Positions 973-31,771 are shown, numbered from the stretch's first letter. The stretch: 64,000 bases of DNA from Octopus sinensis (GCF_006345805.1 NC_043001.1:48422001-48486000), one strand, 5' to 3'. Notes: generated by a model from the sequence alone, not told the origin. Made by a program: numbers and translations.

Positions 973-989
973 CGTTGGTTTCAAGTACC
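973..989. repeat. Left copy of 17-bp target-site duplication cgttggtttcaagtacc
   Basis: Identical to 18458-18474; the two bracket the split SINE, the Tx1 LINE and the array. Confidence 0.9.
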
Positions 990-1172
990 TATTTCTTTAT
1001 TACCCACAAGGGGCTAAACACAGAGGGGACAAACAAGGACAGACATAGGTATTAAGTCGATTACATCGACCCCAGTGCGTAACTGGTACTTAATATATCT
1101 ACCCCGAAAGGATGAAAGGCAAAATCGACCTCGGCGGAATTTGAACTCACAACGTAACGCAGACGAAATACG
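990..1172 (-). mobile_element. Body and Tx1-like tail of a family A SINE whose head lies at 18434-18457
   Basis: Minus strand reads gtatttcgtctgcgttacgttgtgagttcaaattccgccgaggtcga...gccccttgtgggtaataaagaaata, collinear with the intact copies starting at 21168 and 50486. Confidence 0.9.
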
Positions 1173-1418
1173 AATTTCTTTATTGCCCACCGGGGGCCAA
1201 ACATAGATATGGACAGTACAACTGATGGGATCAGTGAATCGATATGATTTTACATAAATGTGACATCAAAAATAAAATACAATACATAAAAATCGAATGG
1301 AATACACAGTACAAAAACAAAAGAAATGAAGCGATGATCAAGTTACGCTCCGATCCCACAAGCCCCGATCTACCGCTGATACCTTTTTATTTTCTCTTTT
1401 TTTTTTCCTCGTATATTT

Positions 1419-4400
1419 TCACACGGTTCCTTGCACGCACAACACTCGTGCAACATACTTCCATCTCTTTTGGAACGTACACTCTGACAGACACCTCTTC
1501 TCCAGCCACAGTTTCCTTTTCAAATGAAAAGAAAAAAAGGATCGTAAATTGTCACCAGAGATAAAGTTGCCTGTCTTAATTCCTTATATCCTAGTATTCC
1601 ATACAGCCTCTTTTGCTATTGCTACAACCGTGAGAAAACAATTCTTACCTTCGTTCGTTAGAACTCCCGGTGGGTCAATTTTTATAATTGACTCAGTCGA
1701 CAGCCGTACTCTTCCTTCGCCGGACAACAGATGTTCAGCATAAGCCCACATTTCAGTTATCTCCGGACACTGAACAATAGCGTGAGGGACGGTTTCCCTG
1801 TCCCCACCGCATCTTGGACAGGTCGGCGACTGACGTTTACCATGTCTTGCGAGCTTATCCCAAACGGGCAAGGCACCTCTGTAGCATTGCCAGGTTAAGG
1901 ACTTTTGGAAGTTGTCCAACGTTCTCAACCCGAATGTACGATGAAACAAGCTGTCCAGTTGAATAAATCCGAGACCTAGAGTCGACCCCAGGCCATCGTC
2001 GCATTCAGACTCTACCAACCCACTATATAAAATCCGTGTGGAACCCCCACCGCTGGCGTTGCCCGAGCGCCGGAACAGCAAGAGGGCCTTACGGCACTCT
2101 TTATGCCACTCACTCGACCTCGGTCTACGAGAACACCAGGCTTCCTGTTCGCAAAAACTCTTGAACTCAGGGAACATTTGTCTGGCCAGCGGAGACCACA
2201 CCCCTTCACTATCCAGGAGAATCCAGAGGTGCCTCAACCTCAACGCATGTCTGCGCATCATTAACCAAGGCATCCCTAAACCTCCATTTAAAGGCTTTTG
2301 ACAGCAGACAGAGCGTTTCACAAGTGGCGACCTGCCCTTCCACAAAAAGCGAAAGAGCTGTCTCTCCAACCTGATCAACCACGAATCCGGACAGGGCACG
2401 ACAGTCAGGCGGTAGGTAATGACCGATGCGATAAACACATTGGCCACTTCCGCCCTCCCTTTCAGGGATAGCCACCGCCAAGACCAAGTCTTGACTACTG
2501 CAGCCACCCTGCTCAATACTCCGTCCAGTTCTTCTCTATCTGGAGGCCTGGTCCAAACCAGACTCCCAGCAACTTAACCGGTCCCTCCGTCCAGCGCCTA
2601 ACAACACTGTCTGAAGGCATCGACTTGCCAACCCAGGTGCCGAGCTGCAAGCCGACCGACTTTTCCCGGTTAATCTTTGCTCCTGCTACCTCCTCGTAAG
2701 CCTCAATAGTCTTACCTACTTCACGTAGGCGTACCACTGTGGTTACACTGATAGTGATATCATCCGCGAAAGCCGTAACAAACTCCTCTAGTCCTGGTTC
2801 TCTCGGGATGCCACTCAACCTTTGCAGTAATGGCTCGAGAGCCATCACATACAAAAGTGGTGAAAGCGGACATCCTTGACGAACCGAGCGTCTGATGCAG
2901 AACGGCTTCGAAAGGAAACCGTTCACCCGAACTATCGAGTCAATGTTGTGGTACAAAGCGATAAACCACCTGAGGAAGCCAAGGCCCAGGCCAAACCGCG
3001 CAAGTACAGTCGCTAGGTATCGATGGTCAACCCTATCAAAAGCTTTAGACTGGTCCAAATGCACCAAAGCCCCACCTTTGCCAGATTTATTACCAAACCT
3101 CTCTATGGTATAGCGAATAAGATGGAGGGTATCCTGAATGGTTCTGCCTGGGATGGCACATGTCTGTGCCTCCCCGACTATACCATTCGCGACACGCGCC
3201 AACCTTTTTGCTAGAACCTTGGCCAAAATCTTCACTTCTGCGTTTAACAGAGTGATGGGCCTGAAATTCTCTAGAACGTCCCCCTTGTCCGGGTCCTTTC
3301 TGACCAACGTCACTACTCCCCGGCGCACAGATCTGGGGATAAACCCATTCTGTTTCCAGTTCGCGTACACGTCAGTCAGTAGTTGCCCGAACAAGTCTGG
3401 CATACATTTATACAGCTCGTACGGAAGACCATCAAGTCCCGGTGACTTACCCGCTTTACAATCGGCCAAAGCCTCCATCACCTCCTCAAGTGTGATTGGC
3501 CCTTCGCAAGACTCCGCATCCGACCCCGAGAGGCACGGCAGCCCGGTAAGAAAGTCCTCGAGGGCTCTCCCACCACCAGGACCGCCGTCACCCCCGAACA
3601 GCTGGGCGAAGTACTCCCGAAAGACCTCACACATTTTCTCGGGTTCGTTTATCAAGACACCATTTTGATTCGTCAAAGACCGAATAGAGGAACTATTTCC
3701 TTGCCGAGCTTCCACCACTCGGGCCCATCCAGCGGCTTTGATTCCTTCACTTCCCATTGCACGTAACTTAGCTCTGGTAATACTTCCCATGTGGTGGGCT
3801 TCAAGATGCTGGTTTAACTCCAGTCTTTTCACCCTCGCTTGGTCTGTATTACCAGTCCTCCAGGCTTCTTCTAGTTCCTTAACTAGACCATCTCCTATTT
3901 TACGTCCCTTCTTAGCTAAACTTATGCTAAACCTAATAGACTCATATTTGATGGCTCTTTTTAGGGCGTACCACCATTTGTTATTAATGATGGTACCTGT
4001 TAATGCCCTCTGTATTAACATCTTGATCCGCTTTCTGTACTCCTCAATCGCCAAAAGGGACGTATTGAGTTTCCAGTAGCCAGATCCCTGTCTATGCAAC
4101 TTATCTACCGTCAGTTTACAGGTAACCATCTTGTGGTCACTGTAGCTGACTAGAAAAAACTGTGGACACTCAACTATGGACTTATCTTTTTCTCTAATTA
4201 AAATCCTATCTAGATATGTTCTGGTAGACCCGTCACTATTTGACCACGTCCACTGTGGAGTGTTCGGGTGCTCCAACCTATATGGATCTGCTAGCTGAAA
4301 TTGACTTAGCAGATCCCGAAAGCCTGTGTTACATTTTCTGTTCATGTTCGAGTTTGAGCCAACACAATCTGTGTGTGCTGCACATATTGTATTAGAGTCT

Positions 4401-4818
4401 CCTAACACTACTAGTGAATGCGACGTGGCTAGGAACTTTCCTAGGCCACGAAAATATTCAGTTTGCGGGCCAATAATGTTTGGTGCATAAATAGCGACCA
4501 GCCTGATTGTCTTGCCACAACTGAATGTCAAGTCGAGAACGACCAGCCTGCCTTCTGGGTCAGAAAAAACCAACTTTTTCTCGGCTACCCGGTTTCTTTT
4601 TAGTAGGACCAACACCCCACCCCCACCTCCGCCCGACTCGGAGAAACGTATTTCTCGTAGCCGTTCAGGAGGGGGAGCAGATCTCTTGGCCCCTTCACCC
4701 GGGTTTCCGTTGCAACAATTACATCCAAATTTCTCGACCTGATGTCATTCAGAAAGCGTCCTTGCTTCCAGCTTGACAACAGGCCATGAACATTTAAACA
4801 ACCAATGTGAATAGCCAT
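1419..4818 (-). pseudogene. Tx1 ORF2: APE endonuclease + reverse transcriptase + C-terminal zinc finger, disrupted
   Basis: Motifs GCLNVHGL, VLGDSN, LDRIL, SDH (APE); KSPGLDG, FRPITLLN, LDQSKAFDRV, RQGCPLSP, FADD (RT); CPRC..ETVPH..C. Frameshifts near 4610 and 2515 and a premature TAA at 1584-1586; the frame then continues to a TGA at 1419-1421. Confidence 0.92.
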
Positions 4819-6168
4819 CACTTACCTGTTTAATTAGGATTGTCCGGTGGAGGGGGACCCTCCACCTTTTTTTATCCAGGGTCGGAGGTGGACGGTCTTG
4901 GGAAATAGATTTGTCAAAATCCCGTCTCACCACCGACACAGAATTATCAGGTGGAGGGGGAATCTCCACCTTTTCCTTTTCTCGCGGGATCGGAGCTGGT
5001 AATCCATGAAATATCGACTTGTTAAAATCTAATCTCAATGAAGATACAGTCTTTCTGTACTTATTTTGTAGAATTCTATAAGTCTTATTTGAGACTTCAT
5101 ATATGTCGTAATTGATAAATTCCTCTGAAAGGTTATCAATTTTTTTACAGTCTTTATGAGTTGAATGTCTCTCATGAGCTCAGTATCTTTAGTGTATACG
5201 GCTATTATGTTTTTCTTCTTTTTCTCTTCTGGCAGTCTTTTTTGGTCGTTGTTCTGTAGTAGTCGCCGCTCTCGGCTGGGTTGCTGGTTGTATTTTTCTT
5301 TTGTTTGTGTTTTTTTTTCTCATCTGTTTCTTCTTTATCTTCTTCCTCTTTGTCTTTTTTCTCCTCTTCCTCCTCTTCTTCATTTTCCTTGCAGTTCCTT
5401 CGAATGTGGCCTAATTGACCACATAAAAAACATCGAGGTTTTCGGCCCTCAACAAACACCACGAGGTTCTCCTCCCCTACCTCAATTGTCTCAGGAATTG
5501 TTTGAATTATTTTAGGGTCCGCTTGAATGAGAAGATTAATTGTTTTACCATCCCAGCGTGGGTTTTCCGTAGCGGTAGCCTGGAGGAGAGTAATTTTTTC
5601 TACCTCTTTGATTAGGACTGCCGCCAACAACCACATAGGTTCGACCTCTGGCGGGACCCTTGTAATTTTTATTCGCGACGTCCTCATCCCCATATAATAT
5701 GGTATTAACTCTACGTCGTTCGTTTTCAACGTTTCCACTGAGTTCTTGTGTGCTATTTCTTTATTGGTGAACCTTACTTCCACCGTTCCGAATTTTTTTC
5801 CTCTTCTCAGAAATACTACGTCGCCCAATATTGGCTTTAAGCACTTTTCTATTTTCTCTTCTGACATTCTTTCAATTTTTCTATTTTGTAGACAATATGT
5901 TTTGAAAATTATTGTTTTTTGCTTTTCTTCCTGTAATAACTTTTGCGGAGGTTCAATTTTCACACTGTTGTCATTTATTTCCATCATTTTGCTGTATTTC
6001 ATAATTTCGCTTTTATTCGTCGACAGTATCTGGGTTCCACCCCCAGCAGCCAACGCAAATTTTTTTCCATTTTTTGGTTCTATCTGGATGCTAGGCACAT
6101 CAATTATTCTCTTCGACACAATGCCTTTGTTCTCTGGCAAAGTCGGAAACTCTTCTGGTGAAAGTTCT
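4819..6168 (-). pseudogene. Tx1 ORF1 (gag-like, CCHC knuckle), N-terminally truncated and frameshifted
   Basis: ORF 5205..6140 has CFLCGQLGHIRRNC and the blocks FLRRGKKFGTVEVRF and VFVEGRKPRC, homologous to the array ORF; Lys/Glu/Pro-rich tail continues in other frames. Confidence 0.85.
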
Positions 6169-6317
6169 TATTTCTTTATTACCCACTAGGGGCGACACAG
6201 AAAGGGACACTAAGAAACATGGGGACATATAACATTATAATTAAACTTTATGAACATGAATTGTTAAACGAAAAAATGATTAAATGAAAGCGATACCAAC
6301 GGCCCCGTCCGTCAGCA

Positions 6318-7732
6318 TCACTTACCTGTCCTTTGTTTTTCATAGTCACTTGAATGTTCCTTGCCAATACGAACAAATTCCATATCCATTCTTACTCCGA
6401 AATACTCATCCATATTTTCCACGAATTCATCGCTCATTCTTATATCTTTCACCTCCCAATTCTCGCATTCACACATCACCATAAAGTCACCTATGTTCTT
6501 CTTTTCAATCACAGCATACCTAGTCTCACCAACATCATACCATTTATACTCTTCCATTAGACTTTTAACTTCTTTCTGTTCAGTCATAGTACAAATGTAC
6601 GGCCTGATATCGATTTCAATCTCTTGTGTGTGTGTATTCTTTTTTTTCTTTTGTTTTCTTGTTGGGGGGGAGCGGGTGGGTTCAATGTCTGCATGGATAG
6701 GGTGGGACTCAGAGGGCGTGGGTGGTTTTGGGGTGGATTGGAGTTCCATATTATTTTCTTTTCCACGTATTCTTCTCTTCCTCTTACTTCCAGCTTCCTT
6801 CCATTTCTGTGTATTCTCTTCCTCTGTTTCCTTCTCCTCTGGTTTCTGCTTCTCTCTCTCTGGTTCGGGATCCATTTCTTTCCCTGGGGGAGGGCAGAAG
6901 GCTCTTATGTGACCCCTCAGGCCACACTTGTAACAACGTGGAGCCCTGCCCTCCACCCACACTCTCATGATCACTTCTCCCAGTCTGATGCTTTCCGTCA
7001 GGTCCACCAGTACCTCGGTCTCTGCCTGTACGTTCAGCTCCACTGTTACGCCTCTCCAGCCCTCGGACTTAACCGAGGCATGGAGAATATCCACTTCGTC
7101 CTCGTGGCCGCTGATCACAGCCGCCACAATCCATTCTGCCTCCACGTTTGGTGGCACTCCCTCCACCCTTATTCGTGTAATCCTCCTGTTTAAATACGTA
7201 GGTAACAGTGTTACCTTTTCCGACTTCACCGCCTTCGCTGCCATCTTCCTCGCTGCAGATTCACTTTTAAAATGCACAACTACGGTCCCATACTTGGATC
7301 CTCGAGTCAGAAAATTTATTTCCTCCTCAGTTCTTCGCAGGGCTTCCTCTATCCATTCCATGGTTACAACTTCTACCCTCTTCCTTTCGTTTGCGAACAC
7401 CCTGTAAAAATGGTCCTCTTATCATACCATTCTTTTCTCCTGGGTGTCGGTGATAGTTCCACCTCACCGCTTTCCTTTTTCATGTGTTTCTGGTAACTTG
7501 GTAGTTTGGCCAAGTCGACCCCTTTCTCTTCCGCCTTCTTGGTTACACCGGCATAAGTATAACTCAGCTTCTTTTCCAAATTCCTCGCTGCCATTTCTAG
7601 CTCCTTCTCAGACGTAGGCGAGTCTGATAAAGACTCGAAAACTCCAGCCTTTTCCTCCATCAGCTTCACTGCAATTGCCTGTTCCAGTTCCTCATCTGTC
7701 GTGGACAAGTCTGTTAGAGACTCATAGTCCAT
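6318..7732 (-). CDS. Array unit 1 ORF: Tx1-type ORF1/gag-like protein, about 471 aa once one frameshift near 7407 is corrected
   Basis: MDYESL...CYKCGLRGHIRAFC...RTGK*; 1415 nt with one base missing relative to the other copies. Confidence 0.8.
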
Positions 7733-8075
7733 TTCCTTCTGTCTGACAGACCGAAAACGGCCGCCAAAACAGAAAAAAGTTTAACGCGCTGAACGAGCGA
7801 AACGCGAAACCGCGTCAACGCCGTTCAGAATTTCCACAACAACAACAACGCTTTTTGTTCTTTTTTACCGAATTTTCAGGAGCCGAAAAAAACACAACCG
7901 ACGTCAAACGAAGTGCTAACGTTTCTTATTTCTTTATTACCCACTAGGGGCGACACAGAAAGGGACACTAAGAAACATGGGGACATATAACATTATAATT
8001 AAACTTTATGAACATGAATTGTTAAACGAAAAAATGATTAAATGAAAGCGATACCAACGGCCCCGTCCGTCAGCA

Positions 8076-9490
8076 TCACTTACCTGTCCTTTGTTTTTCA
8101 TAGTCACTTGAATGTTCTTTGCCAATACGAACAAATTCCATATCCATTCTTACTCCGAAATACTCATCCATATTTTCCACGAATTCATCACTCATTCTTA
8201 TATCTTTCACCTCCCAATTCTCCCTTTCACACCTCACCATAAAGTCACCTATGTTCTTCTTTTCAATCACAGCATACCTAGTCTCACCAACATCATACCA
8301 TTTATACTCTTCCATTAGACTTTTAACTTCTTTCTGTTCAGTCATAGTACAAATGTACGGCCTGATATCGATTTCAATCTCTTGTGTGTTGTATTCTTTT
8401 TTTTTTTTTTGTTTCTTGTTGGGGGGGAGCGGGTGGGTTCAATGTCTGCATGGATAGGGTGGGACTCAGAGGGCGTGGGTGGTTTTGGGGTGGATTGGAG
8501 TTCCATATTATTTTCTTTTCCACGTATTCTTCTCTTCCTCTTACTTCCAGCTTCCTTCCATTTCTGTGTATTCTCTTCCTCTGTTTCCTTCTCCTCTGGT
8601 TTCTGCTTCTCTCTCTCTGGTTCGGGATCCATTTCTTTCCCTGGGGGAGGGCAGAAGGCTCTTATGTGACCCCTCAGGCCACACTTGTAACAACGTGGAG
8701 CCCTGCCCTCCACCCACACTCTCATGATCACTTCTCCCAGTCTGATGCTTTCCGTCAGGTCCACCAGTACCTCGGTCTCTGCCTGTACGTTCAGCTCCAC
8801 TGTTACGCCTCTCCAGCCCTCGGACTTAACCGAGGCATGGAGAATATCCACTTCGTCCTCGTGGCCGCTGATCACAGCCGCCACAATCCATTCTGCCTCC
8901 ACGTTTGGTGGCACTCCCTCCACCCTTATTCGTGTAATCCTCCTGTTTAAATACGTAGGTAACAGTGTTACCTTTTCCGACTTCACCGCCTTCGCTGCCA
9001 TCTTCCTCGCTGCAGATTCACTTTTAAAATGCACAACTACGGTCCCATACTTGGATCCTCGAGTCAGAAAATTTATTTCCTCCTCAGTTCTTCGCAGGGC
9101 TTCCTCTATCCATTCCATGGTTACAACTTCTACCCTCTTCCTTTCGTTTGCGAACACCCTGTAAACAATGGTCCTCTTATCATACCATTCTTTTCTCCTG
9201 GGTGTCGGTGATAGTTCCACCTCACCGCTTTCCTTTTTCATGTGTTTCTGGTAACTTGGTAGCTTGGCCAAGTCGACCCCTTTCTCTTCCGCCTTCTTGG
9301 TTACACCGGCATAAGTATAACTCAGCTTCTTTTCCAAATTCCTCGCTGCCATTTCTAGCTCCTTCTCAGACGTAGGCGAGTCTGATAAAGACTCGAAAAC
9401 TCCAGCCTTTTCCTCCATCAGCTTCATTGCAATTGCCTGTTCCAGTTCCTCATCTGTCGTGGACAAGTCTGTTAGAGACTCATAGTCCAT
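8076..9490 (-). CDS. Array unit 2 ORF1-like protein (frameshift in T-rich tract near 8400)
   Basis: 382-aa and 89-aa ORF pieces join to give the consensus protein. Confidence 0.8.
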
Positions 9491-9832
9491 TTCCTTCTGT
9501 CTGACAGACCGAAAACGGCCGCCAAAACAGAAAAAAGTTTAACGCGCTGAACGAGCGAAACGCGAAACCGCGTCAACGCCGTTCAGAATTTCCACACAAC
9601 AACAACGCTTTTTGTTCTTTTTTACCGAATTTTCAGGAGCCGAAAAAAACACAACCGACGTCAAACGAAGTGCTAACGTTTCTTATTTCTTTATTACCCA
9701 CTAGGGGCGACACAGAAAGGGACACTAAGAAACATGGGGACATATAACATTATAATTAAACTTTATGAACATGAATTGTTAAACGAAAAAATGATTAAAT
9801 GAAAGCGATACCAACGGCCCCGTCCGTCAGCA

Positions 9833-11244
9833 TCACTTACCTGTCCTTTGTTTTTCATAGTCACTTGAATGTTCCTTGCCAATACGAACAATTCCATATC
9901 CATTCTTACTCCGAAATACTCATCCATATTTTCCACGAATTCATCGCTCATTCTTATATCTTTCACCTCCCAATTCTTCCTTTCACACCTCCCCATAAAC
10001 TCACCTATGTTCTTCTTTTCAATCACAGCATACCTAGTCTCACCAACATCATACCATTTATACTCTTCCATTAGACTTTTAACTTCTTTCTGTTCAGTCA
10101 TAGTACAAATGTACATCCTGATATCGTTTTCAATCTCTTGTGTGTGTGTATTCTTTTTTTTCTTTTGTTTTCTTGTTGGGGGGGAGCGGGTGGGTTCAAT
10201 GTCTGCATGGGTAGGGTGGGACTCAGAGGGCGTGGGTGGTTTTGGGGTGGATTGGAGTTCCATATTGTTTTCTTTTCCACGTATTCTTCTCTTCCTCTTA
10301 CTTCCAGCTTCCTTCCATTTCTGTGTATTCTCTTCCTCTGTTTCCTTCTCCTCTGGTTTCTGCTTCTCTCTCTCTGGTTCGGGATCCATTTCTTTCCCTG
10401 GGGGAGGGCAGAAGGCTCTTATGTGACCCCTCAGGCCACACTTGTAACAACGTGGAGCCCTGCCCTCCACCCACACTCTCATGATCACTTCTCCCAGTCT
10501 GATGCTTTCCGTCAGGTCCACCAGTACCTCGGTCTCTGCCTGTACGTTCAGCTCCACTGTTACGCCTCTCCAGCCCTCGGACTTAACCGAGGCATGGAGA
10601 ATATCCACTTCGTCCTCGTGGCCGCTGATCACAGCCGCCACAATCCATTCTGCCTCCACGTTTGGTGGCACTCCCTCCACCCTTATTCGTGTAATCCTCC
10701 TGTTTAAATACGTAGGTAACAGTGTTACCTTTTCCGACTTCACCGCCTTCGCCGCCATCTTCCTCGCTGCAGATTCACTTTTAAATGCACAACTACGGTC
10801 CCATACTTGGATCCTCGAGTCAGAAAATTTATTTCCTCCTCAGTTCTTCGCAGGGCTTCCTCTATCCATTCCATGGTTACAACTTCTACCCTCTTCCTTT
10901 CGTTTGCGAAACCCTGTAAACAATGGTCCTCTTATCATACCATTCTTTTCTCCTGGGTGTCGGTGATAGTTCCACCTCACCGCTTTCCTTTTTCATGTGT
11001 TCTGGTAACTTGGTAGTTTGGCCAAGTCGACCCCTTTCTCTTCCGCCTTCTTGGTTACACCGGCATAAGTATAACTCAGCTTCTTTTCCAAATTCCTCGC
11101 TGCCATTTCTAGCTCCTTCTCAGACGTAGGCGAGTCTGATAAAGACTCGAAAACTCCAGCCTTTTCCTCCATCAGCTTCATTGCAATTGCCTGTTCCAGT
11201 TCCTCATCTGTCGTGGACAAGTCTGTTAGAGACTCATAGTCCAT
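9833..11244 (-). pseudogene. Array unit 3 ORF1-like, several 1-bp indels
   Basis: 83-aa and 331-aa fragments of the consensus protein. Confidence 0.75.
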
Positions 11245-11587
11245 TTCCTTCTGTCTGACAGACCGAAAACGGCCGCCAAAACAGAAAAAAGTTTAACGCG
11301 CTGAACGAGCGAAACGCGAAACCGCGTCAACGCCGTTCAGAATTTCCACAACAACAACAACGCTTTTTGTTCTTTTTTACCGAATTTTCAGGAGCCGAAA
11401 AAAACACAACCGACGTCAAACGAAGTGCTAACGTTTCTTATTTCTTTATTACCCACTAGGGGCGACACAGAAAGGGACACTAAGAAACATGGGGACATAT
11501 AACATTATAATTAAACTTTATGAACATGAATTGTTAAACGAAAAAATGATTAAATGAAAGCGATACCAACGGCCCCGTCCGTCAGCA

Positions 11588-12996
11588 TCACTTACCTGTC
11601 CTTTGTTTTTCATAGTCACTTGAATGTTCCTTGCCAATACGAACAAATTCCATATCCATTCTTACTCCGAAATACTCATCCATATTTTCCACGAATTCAT
11701 CGCTCATTCTTATATCTTTCACCTCCCAATTCTCGCATTCACACATCACCATAAAGTCACCTATGTTCTTCTTTTCAATCACAGCATACCTAGTCTCACC
11801 AACATCATACCATTTATACTCTTCCATTAGACTTTTAACTTCTTTCTGTTCAGTCATAGTACAAATGTACGGCCTGATATCGATTTCAATCTCTTGTGTG
11901 TGTGTATTCTTTTTTTCTTTTGTTTTCTTGTTGGGGGGGAGCGGGTGGGTTCAATGTCTGCATGGATAGGGTGGGACTCAGAGGGCGTGGGTGGTTTTGG
12001 GGTGGATTGGAGTTCCATATTATTTTCTTTTCCACGTATTCTTCTCTTCCTCTTACTTCCAGCTTCCTTCCATTTCTGTGTATTCTCTTCCTCTGTTTCC
12101 TTCTCCTCTGGTTTCTGCTTCTCTCTCTCTGGTTCGGGATCCATTTCTTTCCCTGGGGGAGGGCAGAAGGCTCTTATGTGACCCCTCAGGCCACACTTGT
12201 AACAACGTGGAGCCCTGCCCTCCACCCACACTCTCATGATCACTTCTCCCAGTCTGATGCTTTCCGTCAGGTCCACCAGCACCTCGGTCTCCGCCTGCAC
12301 GTTCAGCTCCACTGTTACGCCTCTCCAGCCCTCGGACTCAACCGAGGCATGGAGAATATCCACTTCGTCCTCGTGGCCGCTGATCACAGCCGCCACAATC
12401 CATTCTGCCTCCACGCTTGGTGGCACTCCCTCCACCCTCATTCGTGCAATCCTCCTGTTCAAATACGTAGGCAACAGTGTTACCTTTTCCGACTTCACCG
12501 CCCTCGCCGCCATCTTCCTCGCTGCAGATTCACTTTCAAAGTGCACAACTACGGTCCCGTACTTGGATCCTCGAGTCAGAAAATTTATTTCCTCCTCAGT
12601 TCCTCGCAGGGCCTCCTCCATCCATTCCATGGATACAACTTCTACCCTCTTCCCTTCGTTTGCGCACACCCTGCAAACAATGGTCCTCCCATCATACCAT
12701 TCCTCTCTCCTGGGTGTCGGTGATAGCTCCACCTCACCGCCTTCCCCTTTCATGTGCTTCTGGCAACTTGGTAGCTTGGCCAAGTCGACCCCTTTCTCCT
12801 CCGCCTTCTTGGTCACACCGGCACAAGTATAACTCAGCCTCCTTTCCAATTTCCCTGCTGCCATTTCCAGCTCCTTCTCAGACAAGTCTGATAAAGACTC
12901 GAAAACTCCAGCCCCTTCCTCCATCAGCCTCACTGCAATTGCCTGTTCCAGTTCCCCATCCGTCGTGGACAAGTCTGTTAGAGACTCATAGTCCAT
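11588..12996 (-). pseudogene. Array unit 4 ORF1-like, A>G hypermutated
   Basis: 380-aa and 89-aa pieces with many K>R, K>E, E>G, Y>C changes. Confidence 0.8.
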
Positions 12997-13339
12997 TTCC
13001 TTCTGTCTGACAGACCGAAAACGGCCGCCAAAACAGAAAAAAGTTTAACGCGCTGAACGAGCGAAACGCGAAACCGCGTCAACGCCGTTCAGAATTTCCA
13101 CAACAACAACAACGCTTTTTGTTCTTTTTTACCGAATTTTCAGGAGCCGAAAAAAACACAACCGACGTCAAACGAAGTGCTAACGTTTCTTATTTCTTTA
13201 TTACCCACTAGGGGCGACACAGAAAGGGACACTAAGAAACATGGGGACATATAACATTATAATTAAACTTTATGAACATGAATTGTTAAACGAAAAAATG
13301 ATTAAATGAAAGCGATACCAACGGCCCCGTCCGTCAGCA

Positions 13340-14749
13340 TCACTTACCTGTCCTTTGTTTTTCATAGTCACTTGAATGTTCTTTGCCAATACGAATAAAT
13401 TCCATATCCATTCTTACTCCGAAATACTCATCCATATTTTCCACGAATTCATCGCTCATTCTTATATCTTTCACCTCCCAATTCTCGCATTCACACTCCC
13501 ATAAAGTCACCTATGTTCTTCTTTTCAATCACAGCATACCTAGTCTCACCAACATCATACCATTTATACTCTTCCATTAGACTTTTAACTCTTCTGTTCA
13601 GTCATAGTACAAATGTACGGCCTGATATCGATTTCAATCTCTTGTGTGTGTGTATTCTTTTTTTTCTTTTGTTTTCTTGTTGGGGGGGAGCGGGTGGGTT
13701 CAATGTCTGCATGGATAGGGTGGGACTCAGAGGGCGTGGGTGGTTTTGGGGTGGATTGGAGTTCCATATTATTTTCTTTTCCACGTATTCTTCTCTTCCT
13801 CTTACTTCCAGCTTCCTTCCATTTCTGTGTATTCTCTTCCTCTGTTTCCTTCTCCTCTGGTTTCTGCTTCTCTCTCTCTGGTTCGGGATCCATTTCTTTC
13901 CCTGGGGGAGGGCAGAAGGCTCTTATGTGACCCCTCAGGCCACACTTGTAACAACGTGGAGCCCTGCCCTCCACCCACACTCTCATGATCACTTCTCCCA
14001 GTCTGATGCTTTCCGTCAGGTCCACCAGTACCTCGGTCTCTGCCTGTACGTTCAGCTCCACTGTTACGCCTCTCCAGCCCTCGGACTTAACCGAGGCATG
14101 GAGAATATCCACTTCGTCCTCGTGGCCGCTGATCACAGCCGCCACAATCCATTCTGCCTCCACGTTTGGTGGCACTCCCTCCACCCTTATTCGTGTAATC
14201 CTCCTGTTTAAATACGTAGGTAACAGTGTTACCTTTTCCGACTTCACCGCCTTCGCTGCCATCTTCCTCGCTGCAGATTCACTTTTAAAATGCACAACTA
14301 CGGTCCCATACTTGGATCCTCGAGTCAGAAAATTTATTTCCTCCTCAGTTCTTCGCAGGGCTTCCTCTATCCATTCCATGGTTACAACTTCTACCCTCTT
14401 CCTTTCGTTTGCGAACACCCTGTAAACAATGGTCCTCTTATCATACCATTCTTTTCTCCTGGGTGTCGGTGATAGTTCCACCTCACCGCTTTCCTTTTTC
14501 ATGTGTTTCTGGTAACTTGGTAGCTTGGCCAAGTCGACCCCTTCTCTTCCGCCTTCTTGGTTACACCGGCATAAGTATAACTCAGCTTCTTTTCCAATTC
14601 CTCGCTGCCATTTCTAGCTCCTTCTCAGACGTAGGCGAGTCTGATAAAGACTCGAAAACTCCAGCCTTTTCCTCCATCAGCTTCATTGCAATTGCCTGTT
14701 CCAGTTCCTCATCTGTCGTGGACAAGTCTGTTAGAGACTCATAGTCCAT
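13340..14749 (-). pseudogene. Array unit 5 ORF1-like, several 1-bp indels
   Basis: 315-aa central fragment matches the consensus protein. Confidence 0.75.
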
Positions 14750-15090
14750 TTCCTTCTGTCTGACAGACCGAAAACGGCCGCCAAAACAGAAAAAAGTTTA
14801 ACGCGCTGAACGAGCGAAACGCGAAACCGCGTCAACGCCGTTCAGAATTTCCACAACAACAACAACGCTTTTTGTTCTTTTTTACCGAATTTTCAGGAGC
14901 CGAAAAAAACACAACCGACGTCAAACGAAGTGCTAACGTTTCTTATTTCTTTATTACCCACTAGGGGCGACACAGAAAGGGACACTAAGAAACATGGGGA
15001 CATAACATTATAATTAAACTTTATGAACATGAATTGTTAAACGAAAAAATGATTAAATGAAAGCGATACCAACGGCCCCGTCCGTCAGCA

Positions 15091-16503
15091 TCACTTACCT
15101 GTCCTTTGTTTTTCATAGTCACTTGAATGTTCCTTGCCAATACGAACAAATTCCATATCCATTCTTACTCCGAAATACTCATCCATATTTTCCACGAATT
15201 CATCGCTCATTCTTATATCTTTCACCTCCCAATTCTTCCTTTCACACCTCCCCATAAACTCACCTATGTTCTTCTTTTCAATCACAGCATACCTAGTCTC
15301 ACCAACATCATACCATTTATACTCTTCCATTAGACTTTTAACTTCTTTCTGTTCAGTCATAGTACAAATGTACATCCTGATATCGTTTTCAATCTCTTGT
15401 GTGTGTGTATTCTTTTTTTCTTTTGTTTTCTTGTTGGGGGGGAGCGGGTGGGTTCAATGTCTGCATGGGTAGGGTGGGACTCAGAGGGCGTGGGTGGGTT
15501 TGGGGTGGATTGGAGTTCCATATTGTTTCTTTTCCACGTATTCTTCTCTTCCTCTTACTTCCAGCTTCCTTCCATTTCTGTGTATTCTCTTCCTCTGTTT
15601 CCTTCTCCTCTGGTTTCTGCTTCTCTCTCTCTGGTTCGGGATCCATTTCTTTCCCTGGGGGAGGGCAGAAGGCTCTTATGTGACCCCTCAGGCCACACTT
15701 GTAACAACGTGGAGCCCTGCCCTCCACCCACACTCTCATGATCACTTCTCCCAGTCTGATGCTTTCCGTCAGGTCCACCAGTACCTCGGTCTCTGCCTGT
15801 ACGTTCAGCTCCACTGTTACGCCTCTCCAGCCCTCGGACTTAACCGAGGCATGGAGAATATCCACTTCGTCCTCGTGGCCGCTGATCACAGCCGCCACAA
15901 TCCATTCTGCCTCCACGTTTGGTGGCACTCCCTCCACCTTATTCGTGTAATCCTCCTGTTTAAATACGTAGGTAACAGTGTTACCTTTTCCGACTTCACC
16001 GCCTTCGCCGCCATCTTCCTCGCTGCAGATTCACTTTTAAAATGCACAACTACGGTCCCATACTTGGATCCTCGAGTCAGAAAATTTATTTCCTCCTCAG
16101 TTCTTCGCAGGGCTTCCTCTATCCATTCCATGGTTACAACTTCTACCCTCTTCCTTTCGTTTGCGAACACCCTGTAAACAATGGTCCTCTTATCATACCA
16201 TTCTTTTCTCCTGGGTGTCGGTGATAGTTCCACCTCACCGCTTTCCTTTTTCATGTGTTTCTGGTAACTTGGTAGCTTGGCCAAGTCGACCCCTTTCTCT
16301 TCCGCCTTCTTGGTTACACCGGCATAAGTATAACTCAGCTTCTTTTCCAAATTCCTCGCTGCCATTTCTAGCTCCTTCTCAGACGTAGGCGAGTCTGATA
16401 AAGACTCGAAAACTCCAGCCTTTTCCTCCATCAGCTTCACTGCAATTGCCTGTTCCAGTTCCTCATCTGTCGTGGACAAGTCTGTTAGAGACTCATAGTC
16501 CAT
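15091..16503 (-). pseudogene. Array unit 6 ORF1-like, several 1-bp indels
   Basis: 205-aa, 182-aa and 94-aa fragments. Confidence 0.75.
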
Positions 16504-16843
16504 TTCCTTCTGTCTGACAGACCGAAAACGGCCGCCAAAACAGAAAAAAGTTTAACGCGCTGAACGAGCGAAACGCGAAACCGCGTCAACGCCGTTCAGA
16601 ATTTCCACAACAACAACAACGTTTGTTGTTTTTTTACCGAATTTTCAGGAGCCGAAAAAAACACAACCGACGTCAAACGAAGTGCTAACGTTCTTATTTC
16701 TTTATTACCCACTAGGGGCGACACAGAAAGGGACACTAAGAAACATGGGGACATATAACATTATAATTAAACTTTATGAACATGAATTGTTAAACGAAAA
16801 AATGATTAAATGAAAGCGATACCAACGGCCCCGTCCGTCAGCA

Positions 16844-18253
16844 TCACTTACCTGTCCTTTGTTTTTCATAGTCACTTGAATGTTCCTTGCCAATACGAAC
16901 AAATTCCATATCCATTCTTACTCCGAAATACTCATCCATTTTTCCACGAATTCATCGCTCATTCTTATATCTTTCACCTCCCAATTCTCGCATTCACATC
17001 ACCATAAAGTCACCTATGTTCTTCTTTTCAATCACAGCATACCTAGTCTCACCAACATCATACCATTTATACTCTTCCATTAGACTTTTAACTTCTTTCT
17101 GTTCAGTCATAGTACAAATGTACGGCCTGATATCGATTTCAATCTCTTGTGTGTGTGTATTCTTTTTTTTCTTGTTTTCTTGTTGGGGGGGAGCGGGTGG
17201 GTTCAATGTCTGCATGGATAGGGTGGGACTCAGAGGCGTGGGTGGTTTTGGGGTGGATTGGAGTTCCATATTATTTTCTTTTCCACGTATTCTTCTCTTC
17301 CTCTTACTTCCAGCTTCCTTCCATTTCTGTGTATTCTCTTCCTCTGTTTCCTTCTCCTCTGGTTTCTGCTTCTCTCTCTCTGGTTCGGGATCCATTTCTT
17401 TCCCTGGGGGAGGGCAGAAGGCTCTTATGTGACCCCTCAGGCCACACTTGTAACAACGTGGAGCCCTGCCCTCCACCCACACTCTCATGATCACTTCTCC
17501 CAGTCTGATGCTTTCCGTCAGGTCCACCAGTACCTCGGTCTCTGCCTGTACGTTCAGCTCCACTGCTACGCCTCTCCAGCCCTCGGACCCAACCGAGGCA
17601 TGGAGAATATCCACCTCGTCCTCGTGGCCGCCGATCACAGCCGCCACAATCCATTCCGCCTCCACGCCTGGTGGCACTCCCTCCACCCCCACTCGTGCAA
17701 TCCTCCTGTTCAAATACGCAGGCAACAGCGCTACCCCCCCCGACCTCACCGCCCTCGCCGCCATCCCCCTCGCTGCAGATTCACCTTTAAAGTGCACAAC
17801 CACGGTCCCGCACTTGGATCCTCGAGTCAGAAAATTCACTTCCTCCTCAGTTCCTCGCAGGGCCTCCTCCATCCATTCCATGGACACAACCTCCACCCTC
17901 CTCCCTTCGCTCGCGCACACCCTGCAAACAATGGTCCTCCCATCACACCATTCCCCTCTCCTGGGTGTCGGTGACAGTTCCACCTCACCGCCCTCCCCCC
18001 TCATGTGCTTCTGGCAACTTGGCAGCTTGGCCAAGTCGACCCCCCTCTCCTCCGCCTTCCTGGCTACACCGGCACAAGTATAACTCAGCTTCCCCTCCAA
18101 ACTCCTCGCTGCCATTTCCAGCTCCTTCTCAGACGTAGGCGAGTCTGATAAAGACTCGAAAACTCCAGCCTTTTCCTCCATCAGCTTCATTGCAATTGCC
18201 TGTTCCAGTTCCTCATCTGTCGTGGACAAGTCTGTTAGAGACTCATAGTCCAT
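16844..18253 (-). pseudogene. Array unit 7 ORF1-like, heavily A>G hypermutated
   Basis: 419-aa ORF with K>R/G, E>G, Y>C, T>A, I>V changes concentrated in about 17566-18119. Confidence 0.8.
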
Positions 18254-18299
18254 TTCCTTCTGTCTGACAGACCGAAAACGGCCGCCAAAACAGAAAAAA

Positions 18300-18433
18300 G
18301 TTTAACGCGCTGAACGAGCGAAACGCGAAACCGCGTCAACGCCGTTCAGAATTTCCACAACAACAACAACGCTTTTTGTTCTTTTTTACCGAATTTTCAG
18401 GAGCCGAAAAAAACACAACCGACGTCAAACGAA
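18300..18433 (-). promoter_or_regulatory. CpG-rich 5' UTR of the array unit (candidate internal promoter; present in all seven units)
   Basis: Dense CpGs (cggcgttgacgcggtttcgcgtttcgctcg) and a CRE-like tgacgtcg upstream of the ATG. Promoter function is inferred from L1-group biology. Confidence 0.35.
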
Positions 18434-18457
18434 GTGCTAACGTTTCTGCCATCTCGC
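18434..18457 (-). mobile_element. 5' head (A-box region) of the split family A SINE
   Basis: Minus strand gcgagatggcagaaacgttagcac versus intact gcgagctggcagaaacgttagcac at about 50491. Confidence 0.85.
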
Positions 18458-18474
18458 CGTTGGTTTCAAGTACC
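18458..18474. repeat. Right copy of the 17-bp TSD
   Basis: Identical to 973-989. Confidence 0.9.
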
Positions 18475-21167: not shown

Positions 21168-21755
21168 AGCTGGAGCTGGCAGAAACGTTAGCACGCCGAG
21201 CGAAATGCGTAGCCGTGTTTCGTCTGCCGTTACGTTCTGAGTTCAAATTCCGCCGAGGTCGACTTTGCCTTTCAACCTTTCGGGGTCAATAAATTCAGTA
21301 CCAGTTATGCACTGGGGTCGATGTAATCGACTTAATCCGTTTGTCTGTCCTTGTTTGTCCCTCTGTGTTTAACCCCTTGTGGGTAGTAAAATAGTAAAGA
21401 AATAGAAATAGGTATTTCGTCTGCCGCTACGTTCTGAGTTCAAATTCCGCCGAGGTCGACTTTGCGTTTCATCCTTTCGGGGTCGATTAGATAAGTACCA
21501 GTTACGCACTGGGGTCGATATAATCGACTTAATCCGTTTGTTTATCCTTGTTTATCCCCTGTGTGTTTAGCCCCTTGTGGGTAGTAAAGAAATAGGTATT
21601 TCGTCTGTCTTTACGTTCTGAGTTCAAATTCCGCCGAGGTCGACTTTACCTTTAGGAGTCGATAAATTAAGTACCAGTTGCGTACTGATTTCTATCTAAT
21701 CGACTGGCGCTCTCTCGAAAAATTTCGGGCCTTCTGCTTAGAGTAGAAAAGAATT
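21168..21755 (+). mobile_element. Family A SINE trimer
   Basis: One full unit plus two headless units joined at gaaata|ggtatttcgtctg (21410/21411 and 21594/21595). Confidence 0.88.
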
Positions 21756-30450: not shown

Positions 30451-30762
30451 TATATATTCATATGTATGCTGAGATACTCATTCACGATACTTTCTGGCAT
30501 GGATTAAAGTTGTCATGCACGCACGCACAAACACACACACACACACTCACACACACATACACACACACACACACACACTCACATACCTATATTCACGCAG
30601 ACGAAAGATGCATGTACACACATATGACGACCGGAGACAACCTAGACACAAGCACGCACAGCCATCAGCTTATATCCTGTTGTGGCAAGAGCACGACACT
30701 CCCTGACGAGAATAGACAGGACCACTACATATAAATTGTAACAGTCTGACGTAATCGGCAGT

Positions 30763-31771
30763 GGACGGTGAGCGGGTGTGGTCTCCGTTCGTTGATGAGA
30801 TATTTCCCAGGTTCACCTCTTTTGGTGAACTGGAATGCCGGATCAGGCGTAGACGAAGGCTAGGAGCTTAGCAAACAGAGTATCGATAGGCATTCGTGCT
30901 TCTCTCCCGAACGAGCAATGCCGGCGGAGGGGATACCACCTCGGCGTACTATAGAGGGCTGGTAGAGGGTAAGTGTGATGACGGCCTAGGGGAGACTCTG
31001 GGTTTCTATGAAAGTCATCTTGCCAACCTGCATCGAAGGACTTTCTGCCCGGGACCTATGGACAACTTCCAGAGGTCCCTGGCTTGGCTGTGCTTCCGAA
31101 GTGCTTTGCCAGTTTGGGATAAACTCACGAGGCACGGCATCACGGCTTCGCCTACGTGTTCACGTTGCGGGCAGAGCAACGAAATTGTTCTGCATGCAAT
31201 CGTACAGTTTCCAAGTCTCTCGGACATGTGGGTTTCTACCGAACGTGTACTGTCACAAGTGGGGAGAGTACAGATGTCAGCCGAATCGATTATCAAGATT
31301 GTTCCGCCGTCTCCTCTAAAAGGAGAAAAGAAATTCTGCTTTCTAGTCGAAATAAATATAGCGAAAGAGATGATAGGGAAGACTCGTGGAAGAAGTGTCG
31401 CATGAGGCACTTTCGTCTCCAGGCATGTTTTGGTTAACCTCTTTTTATATCACCTAATGGGGAAAGCAGGTCTGGAGAAGAAATCCCTGACGTCAAAAAA
31501 GTATGAAAAAAAGATGGGAGAAAGTAGCTCGAATATTGGCTATGTAAGTGCCTAATGAAGCAGAGTAAAAAAAAATAAAGGACGAAGTAAACGTTTCGAC
31601 GCAGGAATGTGGTTGGTGGGGTCAACCCATTCCGCGTCCATTCATTTTCTTTTCATTTTCATCAGAAGCTATAATGTATTTATTCATATATGTAATATTC
31701 GAGAAGTCCCCGACGCCATTTGTCCCGTGAATTGTCGCCTCTTTGTTTAGCCCTTGTGGTTTGAAAAAAAA
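30763..31771 (+). mobile_element. 3' fragment of a second Tx1-family LINE inserted in the Gypsy 5' LTR
   Basis: ORF 30896..31405 aligns to the ORF2 C-terminus at 1584-2100 (DNFQRSLAW, ALPVWDKL, ESIIKI); ends gtttagcccttgtggtttgaaaaaaaa. Confidence 0.85.

What the first reader, a model, noticed from the sequence alone, without database searches (positions are those of the whole stretch)
6169..18447. Seven-copy tandem array of an ORF1-only (HAL1-like) Tx1 derivative
Each unit has a ~190-nt CpG-rich 5' UTR, a ~471-codon CCHC ORF1, a ~150-nt 3' UTR and the tail, with no endonuclease or RT. Its ORF1 is homologous to but clearly diverged from the adjacent LINE ORF1 (FLTRGSKYGTVVVHF vs FLRRGKKFGTVEVRF; VEGRAPRCYKCG vs VEGRKPRCFLCG), so it is an independent lineage rather than a local deletion product. 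Each unit begins with the SINE-head 14-mer agaaacgttagcac. That is either a TSD regenerated by serial site-specific insertion after tggc, or co-transcribed target sequence. ORF1-only HAL1 elements are known; a targeted tandem array of them is unusual.
Basis: partly seen in the sequence, partly recalled or inferred. Interest (0 to 1): 0.8.

Follow-up and report, generated by a model that had tools for sequence, protein, structure and literature searches.

The report
RNA-edited copies in retrotransposon tandem array
Seven head-to-tail copies of a stripped-down jumping gene sit inside a short repeat, probably in an octopus genome, and two of them carry dense one-way A-to-G changes that look like RNA editing written back into DNA, which, if real, would show RNA editing leaving marks in the genome.

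Summary
The array is real in the sequence: seven 1.75-kb ORF1-only units (6169-18447, minus strand; majority frame 471 codons, two RRM-like folds plus CCHC). They lie with a 5'-truncated L1/Tx1-group LINE inside one tRNA-type SINE bounded by a 17-bp duplication. Public contigs show a multi-copy family, so this is not a one-off deletion.

Units 4 and 7 carry sense-strand A>G clusters (40 of 225 and 69 of 184 adenosines; 0 and 1 of 346 outside). The changes are nearly absent after G, blind to codon position, and run against homologues: the pattern of ADAR hyper-editing. The two patterns overlap but interleave base by base, which needs two RNA passages. Unit order has a three-unit period (p=0.0095), arguing against seven independent insertions.

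Best reading: read-through trimer RNAs, edited in their first unit, were copied twice into a regenerated 14-bp target. Not shown: the edited haplotypes in raw DNA reads, the dsRNA partner, and Tx1 membership. Earlier scan notes held no look-alike sequence. New variant of known kinds; interest 0.72.

The parts
973..989 (-). 3' copy of the 17-bp target-site duplication of the host SINE
   Evidence: identical to 18458-18474; occurs exactly twice in the window
990..1172 (-). body and tail of the host tRNA-type SINE (B-box-like GAGTTCAAATTCC at about 1137-1148)
   Evidence: 88-91% identical to SINE copies at 21.2-21.6 kb and 50.5-50.9 kb; compared with an intact head
1173..6168 (-). 5'-truncated autonomous-type LINE of the L1 group (ORF1 with CCHC; ORF2 with APE, RT, zf-RVT; frames broken as assembled)
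   Evidence: Pfam; best solved match human L1 ORF2p, E 1e-51, against 2e-20 for R2; other copies run on past 6168 (tables 7 and 8)
4816..4829 (-). LINE ORF1-stop/ORF2-start motif ACAGGTAAGTGATG, identical in all seven units
   Evidence: 8 exact occurrences on the strand searched; blastn 14/14
6165..6168 (-). AGAA microhomology joining the tail of U1 to the truncated LINE ORF1
   Evidence: junction; native LINE continuation differs beyond 6168 in runs X1 and X2 (table 7)
6169..7926 (-). unit U1 (type a, unedited); ORF 6318-7732 with one 1-nt break
7927..9683 (-). unit U2 (type a', unedited)
9684..11438 (-). unit U3 (type b, unedited)
11439..13190 (-). unit U4 (type c, A>G hypermutated; also a 6-nt deletion that is a family variant)
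   Evidence: deletion at U1 positions 7614-7620 seen in X1 and X3 contigs (table 4)
12280..12961 (-). A>G cluster of U4: 40 of 225 adenosines (38 without two sites that also vary among unedited units)
13191..14943 (-). unit U5 (type a, unedited)
14944..16694 (-). unit U6 (type b, unedited; head spacer 13 nt)
16695..18447 (-). unit U7 (type c, A>G hypermutated), first unit in the sense direction
17566..18119 (-). A>G cluster of U7: 69 of 184 adenosines (68 without one polymorphic site)
18434..18447 (-). SINE-head 14-mer AGAAACGTTAGCAC, repeated as spacer at 7913, 9670, 11425, 13177, 14930 and (13 nt) 16682
18448..18457 (-). first 10 nt of the host SINE head; 19 nt of SINE between the 14-mer and the body are missing
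   Evidence: comparison with the intact copy at 50490
18458..18474 (-). 5' copy of the 17-bp target-site duplication of the host SINE

Best explanation
The unit is a multi-copy, ORF1-only, non-autonomous LINE. It has a CpG-rich 5' UTR, an RNA-binding ORF1, the old ORF1/ORF2 stop-start motif, and a 42-nt tail shared with the neighbouring L1/Tx1-group LINE and with the host SINE (shown). It is copied in trans by such a LINE's ORF2 (inferred). That machinery cuts the SINE head before AGAAACG and duplicates 14 bp, so each insertion rebuilds the target at its own 5' end (partly shown). The order in the sense direction is c-b-a, c-b-a', a. I read this as one first monomer plus two insertions of a read-through c-b-a trimer RNA of about 5.3 kb, the length of the LINE RNA itself (inferred). 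In each trimer RNA the first unit was hyper-edited A-to-I by ADAR while paired with an antisense RNA from elsewhere, and reverse transcription fixed the inosines as G in genomic DNA (the signature is shown; the enzyme, the duplex and the RNA step are inferred). The LINE beside the array lost its 5' end and 29 nt of target at an AGAA microhomology, either on insertion or by a template switch. My odds for the steps: ORF1-only family 0.9; A>G clusters real and ADAR-made 0.75; two separate RNA passages 0.65; trimer blocks as the mobile unit 0.4. The confidence given is for the core (family, SINE target, edits fixed through two RNA passages).
For: One-way and one-strand: U4 40 A>G against 10 other substitutions, U7 70 against 6; T>C 2 each; the five other units have 0-2 A>G. 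Bounded: 40 and 69 of 225 A inside columns 243-931, against 0 and 1 of 346 outside (p 7e-18, 4e-30). Context in columns 342-896: after G 1 of 63 against 30 of 121 (U4, p 1.6e-5) and 2 of 63 against 67 of 121 (U7, p 4.8e-14); highest after T (15/32, 20/28). Upstream-G depletion is the shared ADAR motif (PMC5625713, passages). Direction: 34 of 38 residue differences favour the unedited unit, and 136 of 138 homologues that hit (150 given) score higher with it. No selection: U7 changes by codon position are 22/22/26 against 43/42/58 available; 37 of 55 changed codons are non-synonymous. Two molecules: 26 shared, 14 U4-only, 44 U7-only, switching between adjacent bases (columns 505-507, 771/772, 793/794, 871/872); sharing is 25 against 21.4 expected from trinucleotide context alone (p 0.04). 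Period 3: mean distance 2.0 at lag 3 against 8.0-8.7 at lags 1, 2, 4, 5; p 0.0095 over all 5040 orders. Family: dominant contigs with 0-1 differences at word depth 1472 and 1824 in X2 and 226-508 in X3; tail + 14-mer + SINE-body loose ends in 88 (X1) and 51 (X2) contigs show that the site is a recurrent target for elements with this tail. Host: 3 of 3 ORF1 hits looked up are named Octopus sinensis or O. vulgaris proteins, and octopus has the strongest hyper-editing signal with the frog (PMC5625713).
Against: The edited haplotypes are unconfirmed in raw data. The best of 24 listed runs holds 0.64 of the words of U7 plus flank, which is what unedited words plus flank alone give (0.52 + 0.13); contigs drop rare variants, so this is no proof of absence. 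Only 2 of 14 divergent contigs compared match U7 in number of differences (11 and 26), none match U4, and letters were not shown. T>C is not in marked excess among places at 3% or more (24 of 137 in X1). No inverted copy of the edited stretch lies in the window, and no long hairpin is predicted. The 3' neighbour leans to G (20 of 40 and 28 of 69 sites; p 0.04 and 0.07), whereas PMC5625713 reports reduced 3' G preference in octopus hyper-editing. Against identical trimers: U4 has a 6-nt deletion and two nearby changes that U7 lacks; U2 and U5 differ at 5 sites and U3 and U6 at 3 outside the cluster. The assembly is noisy: indels in all 7 units, and a G>A in U1 and U3 that no contig covering 7505 carries. 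The period test was chosen after seeing the data.
Confidence: 0.6

Rival explanations
1. Seven monomer RNAs were inserted one after another into the regenerated 14-bp target; two came from an edited source and the period is chance.
For: The spacer equals the target sequence at all 6 internal junctions (one lacks an A). Units carry real family variants in different combinations. Precedents: R1 arrays spaced by a 14-bp TSD (PMC2718515) and tandem SINEU-3 sandwiching a TSD (PMC4494074).
Against: Period 3, p 0.0095. Six other matches to the SINE-head pattern in the window carry no unit, and SINEs make up 11.6% of the O. vulgaris genome (PMC13282606), so seven independent hits on one copy need a strong local bias.
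Confidence: 0.15
2. One edited RNA was inserted once; a three-unit block was then duplicated at the DNA level (unequal exchange, or a false join in the assembly), and gene conversion or consensus mixing made U4 and U7 differ.
For: Period 3; U1, U4 and U7 have 0 substitutions between them outside the cluster. U4 and U7 share four non-A>G changes and 25 of U4's 30 edits in the common window. Dimer-then-unequal-exchange is a described route (PMC5932611).
Against: 58 private A>G changes that switch state between adjacent bases; conversion tracts or mixed read piles should move neighbours together. U7-only sites keep the ADAR context (2 of 44 after G, p 7e-7); U4-only sites are weaker (2 of 14, p 0.07).
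Confidence: 0.15
3. The A>G clusters are an artefact of base-calling, base modification or polishing (for example with edited RNA reads), and the array is an ordinary ORF1-only tandem.
For: No run was shown to hold the edited haplotype. The assembly has indels in every unit. Same-type mismatch clusters from sequencing error are documented (PMC2873906).
Against: Five units with the same sequence context show 0-2 such changes. The changes are one-way (70 A>G, 0 G>A in U7) and include TAC and TAT contexts far from A/G run edges. Five SINE copies used as a control show no such bias (1, 3, 1, 0, 0 A>G).
Confidence: 0.15
4. LINE and array came in one event: the RT started on the LINE RNA in the SINE body, switched at AGAA to unit RNA (monomers or multimers in the same particle), and ended by annealing the last 14-mer to the SINE head. 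This can hold together with the ADAR reading.
For: No 14-mer after U1, a 4-nt microhomology, 19 nt of SINE missing, same orientation, and one host SINE.
Against: Needs about 17 kb of cDNA and several switches. 5' truncation with microhomology and target deletion is common and sufficient (PMC2718515). No second LINE-unit chimera appears among the rows shown.
Confidence: 0.15

Closest known systems
HAL1 (half-L1) and other ORF1-present bipartite LINEs (HeT-A, Ag-Sponge); PMC5786205 and PMC5753468, passages
   Same: Only ORF1, with LINE-type 5' and 3' ends; depends on an autonomous partner.
   Different: Those come from mammalian L1, Jockey and CR1. This one has a tandem-RRM plus CCHC ORF1, is probably from an octopus, sits in a SINE head and is arrayed. 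No Tx1-derived or cephalopod case appeared in the listings (titles and abstract starts; passages for two papers). Bao and Jurka 2010 and Repbase were not read.
Target-preferring Tx1 clade and its passengers (Tx1L in Tx1D, Keno in U2, Tx1-Mar with SINEU-3 in Mariner-N4); PMC4494074, passages
   Same: Insertion into another repeat; passengers share the target; tandem passengers sandwich a TSD.
   Different: The target is the head of a SINE that itself carries the same tail; the passenger encodes ORF1; clade membership was not established here.
R1 tandem arrays in Drosophila; PMC2718515 and PMC5932611, passages
   Same: Head-to-tail copies separated by a 14-bp target duplication.
   Different: R1 is autonomous and targets rDNA. 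Here the 3' duplication is cut to 4 nt and the unit order has a three-unit period.
ADAR A-to-G hypermutation of avian retroviral sequences (RAV, ALV); PMC12925331, passage
   Same: Dense A>G clusters carried through reverse transcription.
   Different: Here it is a non-LTR element in an animal genome assembly. The same review says editing does not appear to explain ADAR1's inhibition of L1, and PMC4982230 (2016) says suppression of Alu retrotransposition by editing was undetermined.
APOBEC G-to-A DNA editing of genomic retroelements; PMC2873906, passages
   Same: Deaminase footprint fixed in genomic retrotransposon copies.
   Different: Opposite change and substrate: A>G on the sense strand implies RNA editing before reverse transcription.

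Membership tests
ORF1-present bipartite non-autonomous LINE (HAL1-like) | Encodes ORF1 only, no EN or RT | tested here: met
   ORF1 homology to the LINE, E 1e-38
ORF1-present bipartite non-autonomous LINE (HAL1-like) | Keeps a LINE 3' tail | tested here: met
   last 42 nt: 32/44 with the LINE, 36/43 with the SINE; the rest of the 3' UTR is not above shuffles (191 of 1000)
ORF1-present bipartite non-autonomous LINE (HAL1-like) | Multi-copy family that moves on its own account | tested here: met
   near-identical high-depth contigs and 85-87% relatives in the laid runs; three unit types in the array; dispersed loci not seen directly
HAL1 in the strict sense | Derived from mammalian L1 | tested here: not met
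   the 3 ORF1 hits looked up are Octopus proteins; ORF1 has a CCHC knuckle, and the model gives two RRM-like domains
Tx1 clade (neighbouring LINE and inferred parent) | ORF2 with APE endonuclease, RT and C-terminal zinc motif of the L1 group | tested here: met
   PF03372, PF00078, PF13966; best PDB match L1 ORF2p
Tx1 clade (neighbouring LINE and inferred parent) | RT groups with named Tx1 elements rather than L1 | not testable with these tools
   none of 77 ORF2 hits carries a Tx1 name; no reference set on hand
Tx1 clade (neighbouring LINE and inferred parent) | Target preference (over 20% of flanks of one type, PMC4494074) | tested here: inconclusive
   one locus; tail + 14-mer + SINE junctions in 88 and 51 contigs may be SINE tails; no genome held
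ADAR hyper-editing footprint | Dense one-strand A>G cluster | tested here: met
ADAR hyper-editing footprint | Depletion of G 5' of the changed A | tested here: met
   p 1.6e-5 and 4.8e-14
ADAR hyper-editing footprint | Reduced 3' G preference as reported for octopus | tested here: not met
   3' G at 20 of 40 and 28 of 69 sites against 77 of 225 available; small numbers
ADAR hyper-editing footprint | Long dsRNA substrate | tested here: inconclusive
   none within the window or the unit; an antisense partner elsewhere could not be sought
ADAR hyper-editing footprint | Changes present in genomic DNA reads | tested here: inconclusive
R1-type serial-insertion array | Units separated by the target duplication | tested here: met
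   6 of 6 internal junctions, one with a 1-nt loss
R1-type serial-insertion array | Full duplication after the 3'-most unit | tested here: not met
   only AGAA, then LINE ORF1

The most novel reading that the evidence does not exclude
In octopus, ADAR hyper-edits transcripts of an active ORF1-only LINE parasite, and those transcripts, as multi-unit read-through RNAs, are reverse-transcribed into the inherited genome. RNA editing thus acts as a heritable mutator of retrotransposons (the RNA-side counterpart of APOBEC editing), and tandem arrays grow by RNA-level block copying into a SINE-head target.
Probability: 0.4. Interest if true: 0.87.

Novelty: new variant of a known kind. Interest (0 to 1): 0.72.

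Why it matters
Coleoid cephalopods edit RNA more than almost any animal, but editing is normally taken to stay in RNA. Genomic retrotransposon copies with an ADAR footprint would show edits flowing back into DNA in cells that pass it on. They would also give a direct test of an open question, whether ADAR restricts retrotransposons by mutating them (undetermined in PMC4982230; apparently editing-independent for L1 in PMC12925331). The test is cheap: scan young octopus TE copies for one-strand A>G clusters depleted after G. The edits also act as molecular barcodes of separate RNA passages, which lets one tell RNA-level from DNA-level growth of a tandem array. Without the edits the locus is a moderately interesting new ORF1-only family.

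Tried and rejected
Whole-genome copy number: no genome held. Word-indexed protein search with the U2 ORF: 0 of 6458 candidates passed; the exhaustive search then found 339. Metagenome scans for the junction motif (0 hits) and for ORF1 relatives (62 pattern hits, none confirmed). No RNA holder listed among 24 runs; X14 is only guessed to be RNA and covered 21 of 30 bins, so expression and editing in RNA are untested. No listed contig bridges the unit-to-unit junction by 31 letters on both sides, but only 32 of 8143 records were shown. Rfam on 1-22500: 3 matches, all far below gathering score, no ribozyme or tRNA. CpG decay (G>A in five units) rejected: A is ancestral and C is a poor 5' neighbour (3/35, 5/27). 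A selected G-rich subfamily rejected: no codon-position bias. Local deletion of the adjacent LINE rejected (35% protein identity). 3' UTR homology beyond the tail: not significant. A conserved tail hairpin: the same small stem is predicted in LINE and SINE but not in the unit, z -2.4 to +0.5, so not claimed. Pfam names no ORF1 family beyond zf-CCHC (12 of 73 members). dN/dS was not estimated: too few differences among unedited units. No complex prediction was run.


Full report
1. What is there. Self-comparison gives a tandem repeat of about 1755 nt from 6.17 to 18.45 kb. It splits into seven minus-strand units, U1 (lowest coordinates, 3'-most) to U7. The majority of the five unedited units has 190 nt before the ATG (CpG obs/exp 2.13), 471 codons and 153 nt after the stop. 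Every assembled unit has at least one short indel in the ORF. The dominant public contigs carry one more base at 7408 than U1 (table 4), so that break is private to this copy or to the assembly. The ORF matches the neighbouring LINE's ORF1 at 35% over 173 residues, with a second 36-residue stretch near the C-terminus. An AlphaFold model from 73 sequences (mean pLDDT 75.9; 86-97 over residues 91-300) gives two RRM/ferredoxin-like domains. The best match is the La RRM, Z 8.7, rmsd 2.5 over 80 residues, and tandem-RRM proteins lead in Foldseek. A CCHC knuckle follows, below the Pfam cut-off in the unit and above it in the LINE. Atlas neighbours are eukaryotic CCHC proteins, including a ZCCHC3-like cluster. 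Three ORF1 hits looked up are annotated in Octopus sinensis or O. vulgaris (3 of 3), so the host is probably an Octopus (inference).

2. Surroundings. In the sense direction the block reads: 17-bp duplication, 10 nt of SINE head, [14-mer + unit] seven times, AGAA, a 5'-truncated LINE of 4996 nt, SINE body and tail, 17-bp duplication. So one SINE was the landing site for everything, and 19 nt of it are missing. The LINE has APE, RT and zf-RVT and is closest to L1 ORF2p among solved structures. None of its 77 hits is named Tx1, so Tx1 stays a likely label, not a result. Other LINE copies continue past 6168 (loose ends in X1 and X2; 351 further letters in an X3 contig), which shows truncation at a 4-nt microhomology. 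Unit, LINE and SINE share a 42-nt tail (36/43, 32/44, 33/43). Unit and LINE both end ORF1 with ACAGGTAAGTGATG, where the LINE's ORF2 ATG overlaps the stop, so the unit descends from a two-ORF element that lost ORF2 right after its start codon.

3. Family, not artefact of one copy. Of 24 runs listed, 20 in 11 studies hold part of U7 plus flank. I laid 4 of the 24 on 5800-7990; all are contigs. Contigs with 0-1 differences from U1 have word depth 1472 and 1824 in X2 and 226-508 in X3, against 3-190 for the divergent X2 contigs shown; depth is not a copy number, but a multi-copy family with 85-87% relatives is clear. Variants that distinguish the units (7239, 7290, 6465, 6467, 7580, and the 6-nt deletion of U4) occur in these contigs. 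Tail + 14-mer + SINE-body loose ends occur in 88 and 51 contigs, so the site before AGAAACG is used repeatedly by elements with this tail; these may be SINE tails. Only 40 of 281 variant rows, 24 of 449 loose-end rows and 32 of 8143 records were shown, so an ORF2-bearing parent is not excluded.

4. The hypermutated units. U1, U2, U3, U5 and U6 differ by 0.3-1.1%; U4 and U7 differ from them by 2.7-5.0%. The excess is A>G on the sense strand: 40 in U4 and 70 in U7, against 10 and 6 other substitutions and 0-2 A>G in the other five units. Two of these sites (columns 271, 702) also vary among unedited units. The changes are confined to columns 243-931 of ORF1 (0 and 1 of 346 A outside). They follow T (15/32, 20/28) and A (20/76, 42/66), seldom C (3/35, 5/27), and almost never G (2/82, 2/63). 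Homologues show A is ancestral: 34 of 38 residue differences, and 136 of 138 hits. Codon positions are hit evenly. Five SINE copies show no such bias. Upstream-G depletion is the ADAR motif common to the animals surveyed, and octopus is one of the two strongest hyper-editors (PMC5625713, passages). A one-strand A>G cluster in a genomic LINE-type copy is most simply inosine read as G by reverse transcriptase (established knowledge of ADAR and TPRT; the step itself is inferred). Against this: the 3' neighbour leans to G, which that paper says is weakened in octopus; no dsRNA partner lies in the window; and no run was shown to hold the edited haplotype. The best share, 0.64, equals unedited words plus flank. 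Two of 14 divergent contigs match U7 in difference count only.

5. One event or two. U4 and U7 share 26 changes and four non-A>G markers; 14 and 44 changes are private. Sharing exceeds the trinucleotide expectation only mildly (25 against 21.4, p 0.04; by 5' base alone 19.5, p 0.006). States flip between adjacent bases, for example shared, U7-only, shared at columns 505-507. Conversion tracts or mixed read piles should not do that, so two edited molecules are likely: either two transcripts of one source, or a second round on an already edited ancestor.

6. How the array grew. Outside the cluster, U1, U4 and U7 are identical, U3 and U6 differ at 3 sites, and U2 and U5 at 5 (two poorly aligned stretches masked). 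Lag 3 gives mean distance 2.0 against 8.0-8.7 for lags 1, 2, 4 and 5 (p 0.0095; test chosen after inspection). With the 5' markers the sense order is c-b-a, c-b-a', a, and both edited units lead a trimer. Since the two c units need separate RNA passages, I favour two insertions of a read-through trimer RNA (about 5.26 kb, near the 5.3 kb or more of the LINE) into the regenerated 14-bp target. The private deletion in U4 and the U2/U5 differences count against identical sources; they need two related source arrays, template switching or assembly noise. Rivals are serial monomers, DNA-level duplication of one edited block, artefact, and a single template-switching event that also brought the LINE.

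7. Known systems and novelty. ORF1-only LINE derivatives are known from the L1, Jockey and CR1 clades (PMC5786205, PMC5753468; passages). Tx1 elements and their passengers target other repeats and form TSD-spaced tandems (PMC4494074; passages). R1 forms arrays with 14-bp spacers, and dimers can expand by unequal exchange (PMC2718515, PMC5932611; passages). ADAR-type hypermutation is known for avian retroviruses (PMC12925331; passage). Active L1-Tx1 families are reported in O. vulgaris, with no mention of HAL1 in the main text (PMC13282606; first third of the text and passages; supplements not seen and may list this family). Four searches for ADAR-edited retrotransposon copies fixed in genomes (19, 20, 20 and 20 listings seen, of 19, 24, 2433 and 27 papers) showed no such report; the library lacks most subscription papers, so this is not proof of novelty. 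Earlier scan notes held no look-alike and one unrelated both-strand TpA case.

8. Verdict. Observation confirmed; first interpretation partly supported. The ORF1-only SINE-targeted array is a new variant of known kinds. The ADAR-type footprint in two of seven copies is the part worth following, and it hangs on one check: accurate DNA reads across U4 and U7.

Noticed in passing
window 4816-4829 and the same motif in all seven units (e.g. 6316-6329): The 14-nt ORF1-stop motif conserved between unit and LINE, whose ORF1s are only 35% identical, holds both a TGATG stop-start overlap and a perfect splice-donor consensus (CAG/GTAAGT, consensus recalled). Its retention in a unit without ORF2 is unexplained.
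   Followed up: partly
unit junctions, e.g. window 7880-7945: The AATAAA in each tail is followed about 19 nt later by CA at the end of the next 14-mer and then by a GU/U-rich stretch in the next unit's head: a possible poly(A) site formed only in tandem, which would leave target sequence on the RNA 3' end. Seen by eye.
   Followed up: no
window 21173-21705 and 50490-50905: The same SINE forms a trimer and a dimer in which the tail is joined to the body at GTATTTCG, the site where the LINE joins the host SINE. Several tail junctions are followed by GTA or GGTA, suggesting a short target motif.
   Followed up: partly
window 1173-6168: The LINE looks young: an X3 contig has 0 substitutions and one 3-nt gap over 5800-6168, though its frames are broken as assembled.
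   Followed up: partly
window 30762-31309: A second, older fragment of a related LINE (C-terminal part of ORF2, + strand), 65% identical to 1668-2215.
   Followed up: partly
proteins P0084, P0085, P0115: Relatives of this ORF1 are annotated as Octopus genes under unrelated or uninformative names (EPM2A-interacting 1-like, K02A2.6-like, uncharacterized).
   Followed up: no
run X3, contigs laid on 6195-6901: Diverged relatives: one at 87% with word depth 284, and one (depth 26) in which tail, ORF1 end and CCHC region lie in order, hinting at further ORF1-only subfamilies (tables 5 and 8).
   Followed up: no
window 7505 (U1) and the matching site in U3: U1 and U3 share a sense G>A that none of the contigs covering the site in X1, X2 or X3 carry; an error or a private change, and a warning about assembly accuracy.
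   Followed up: partly
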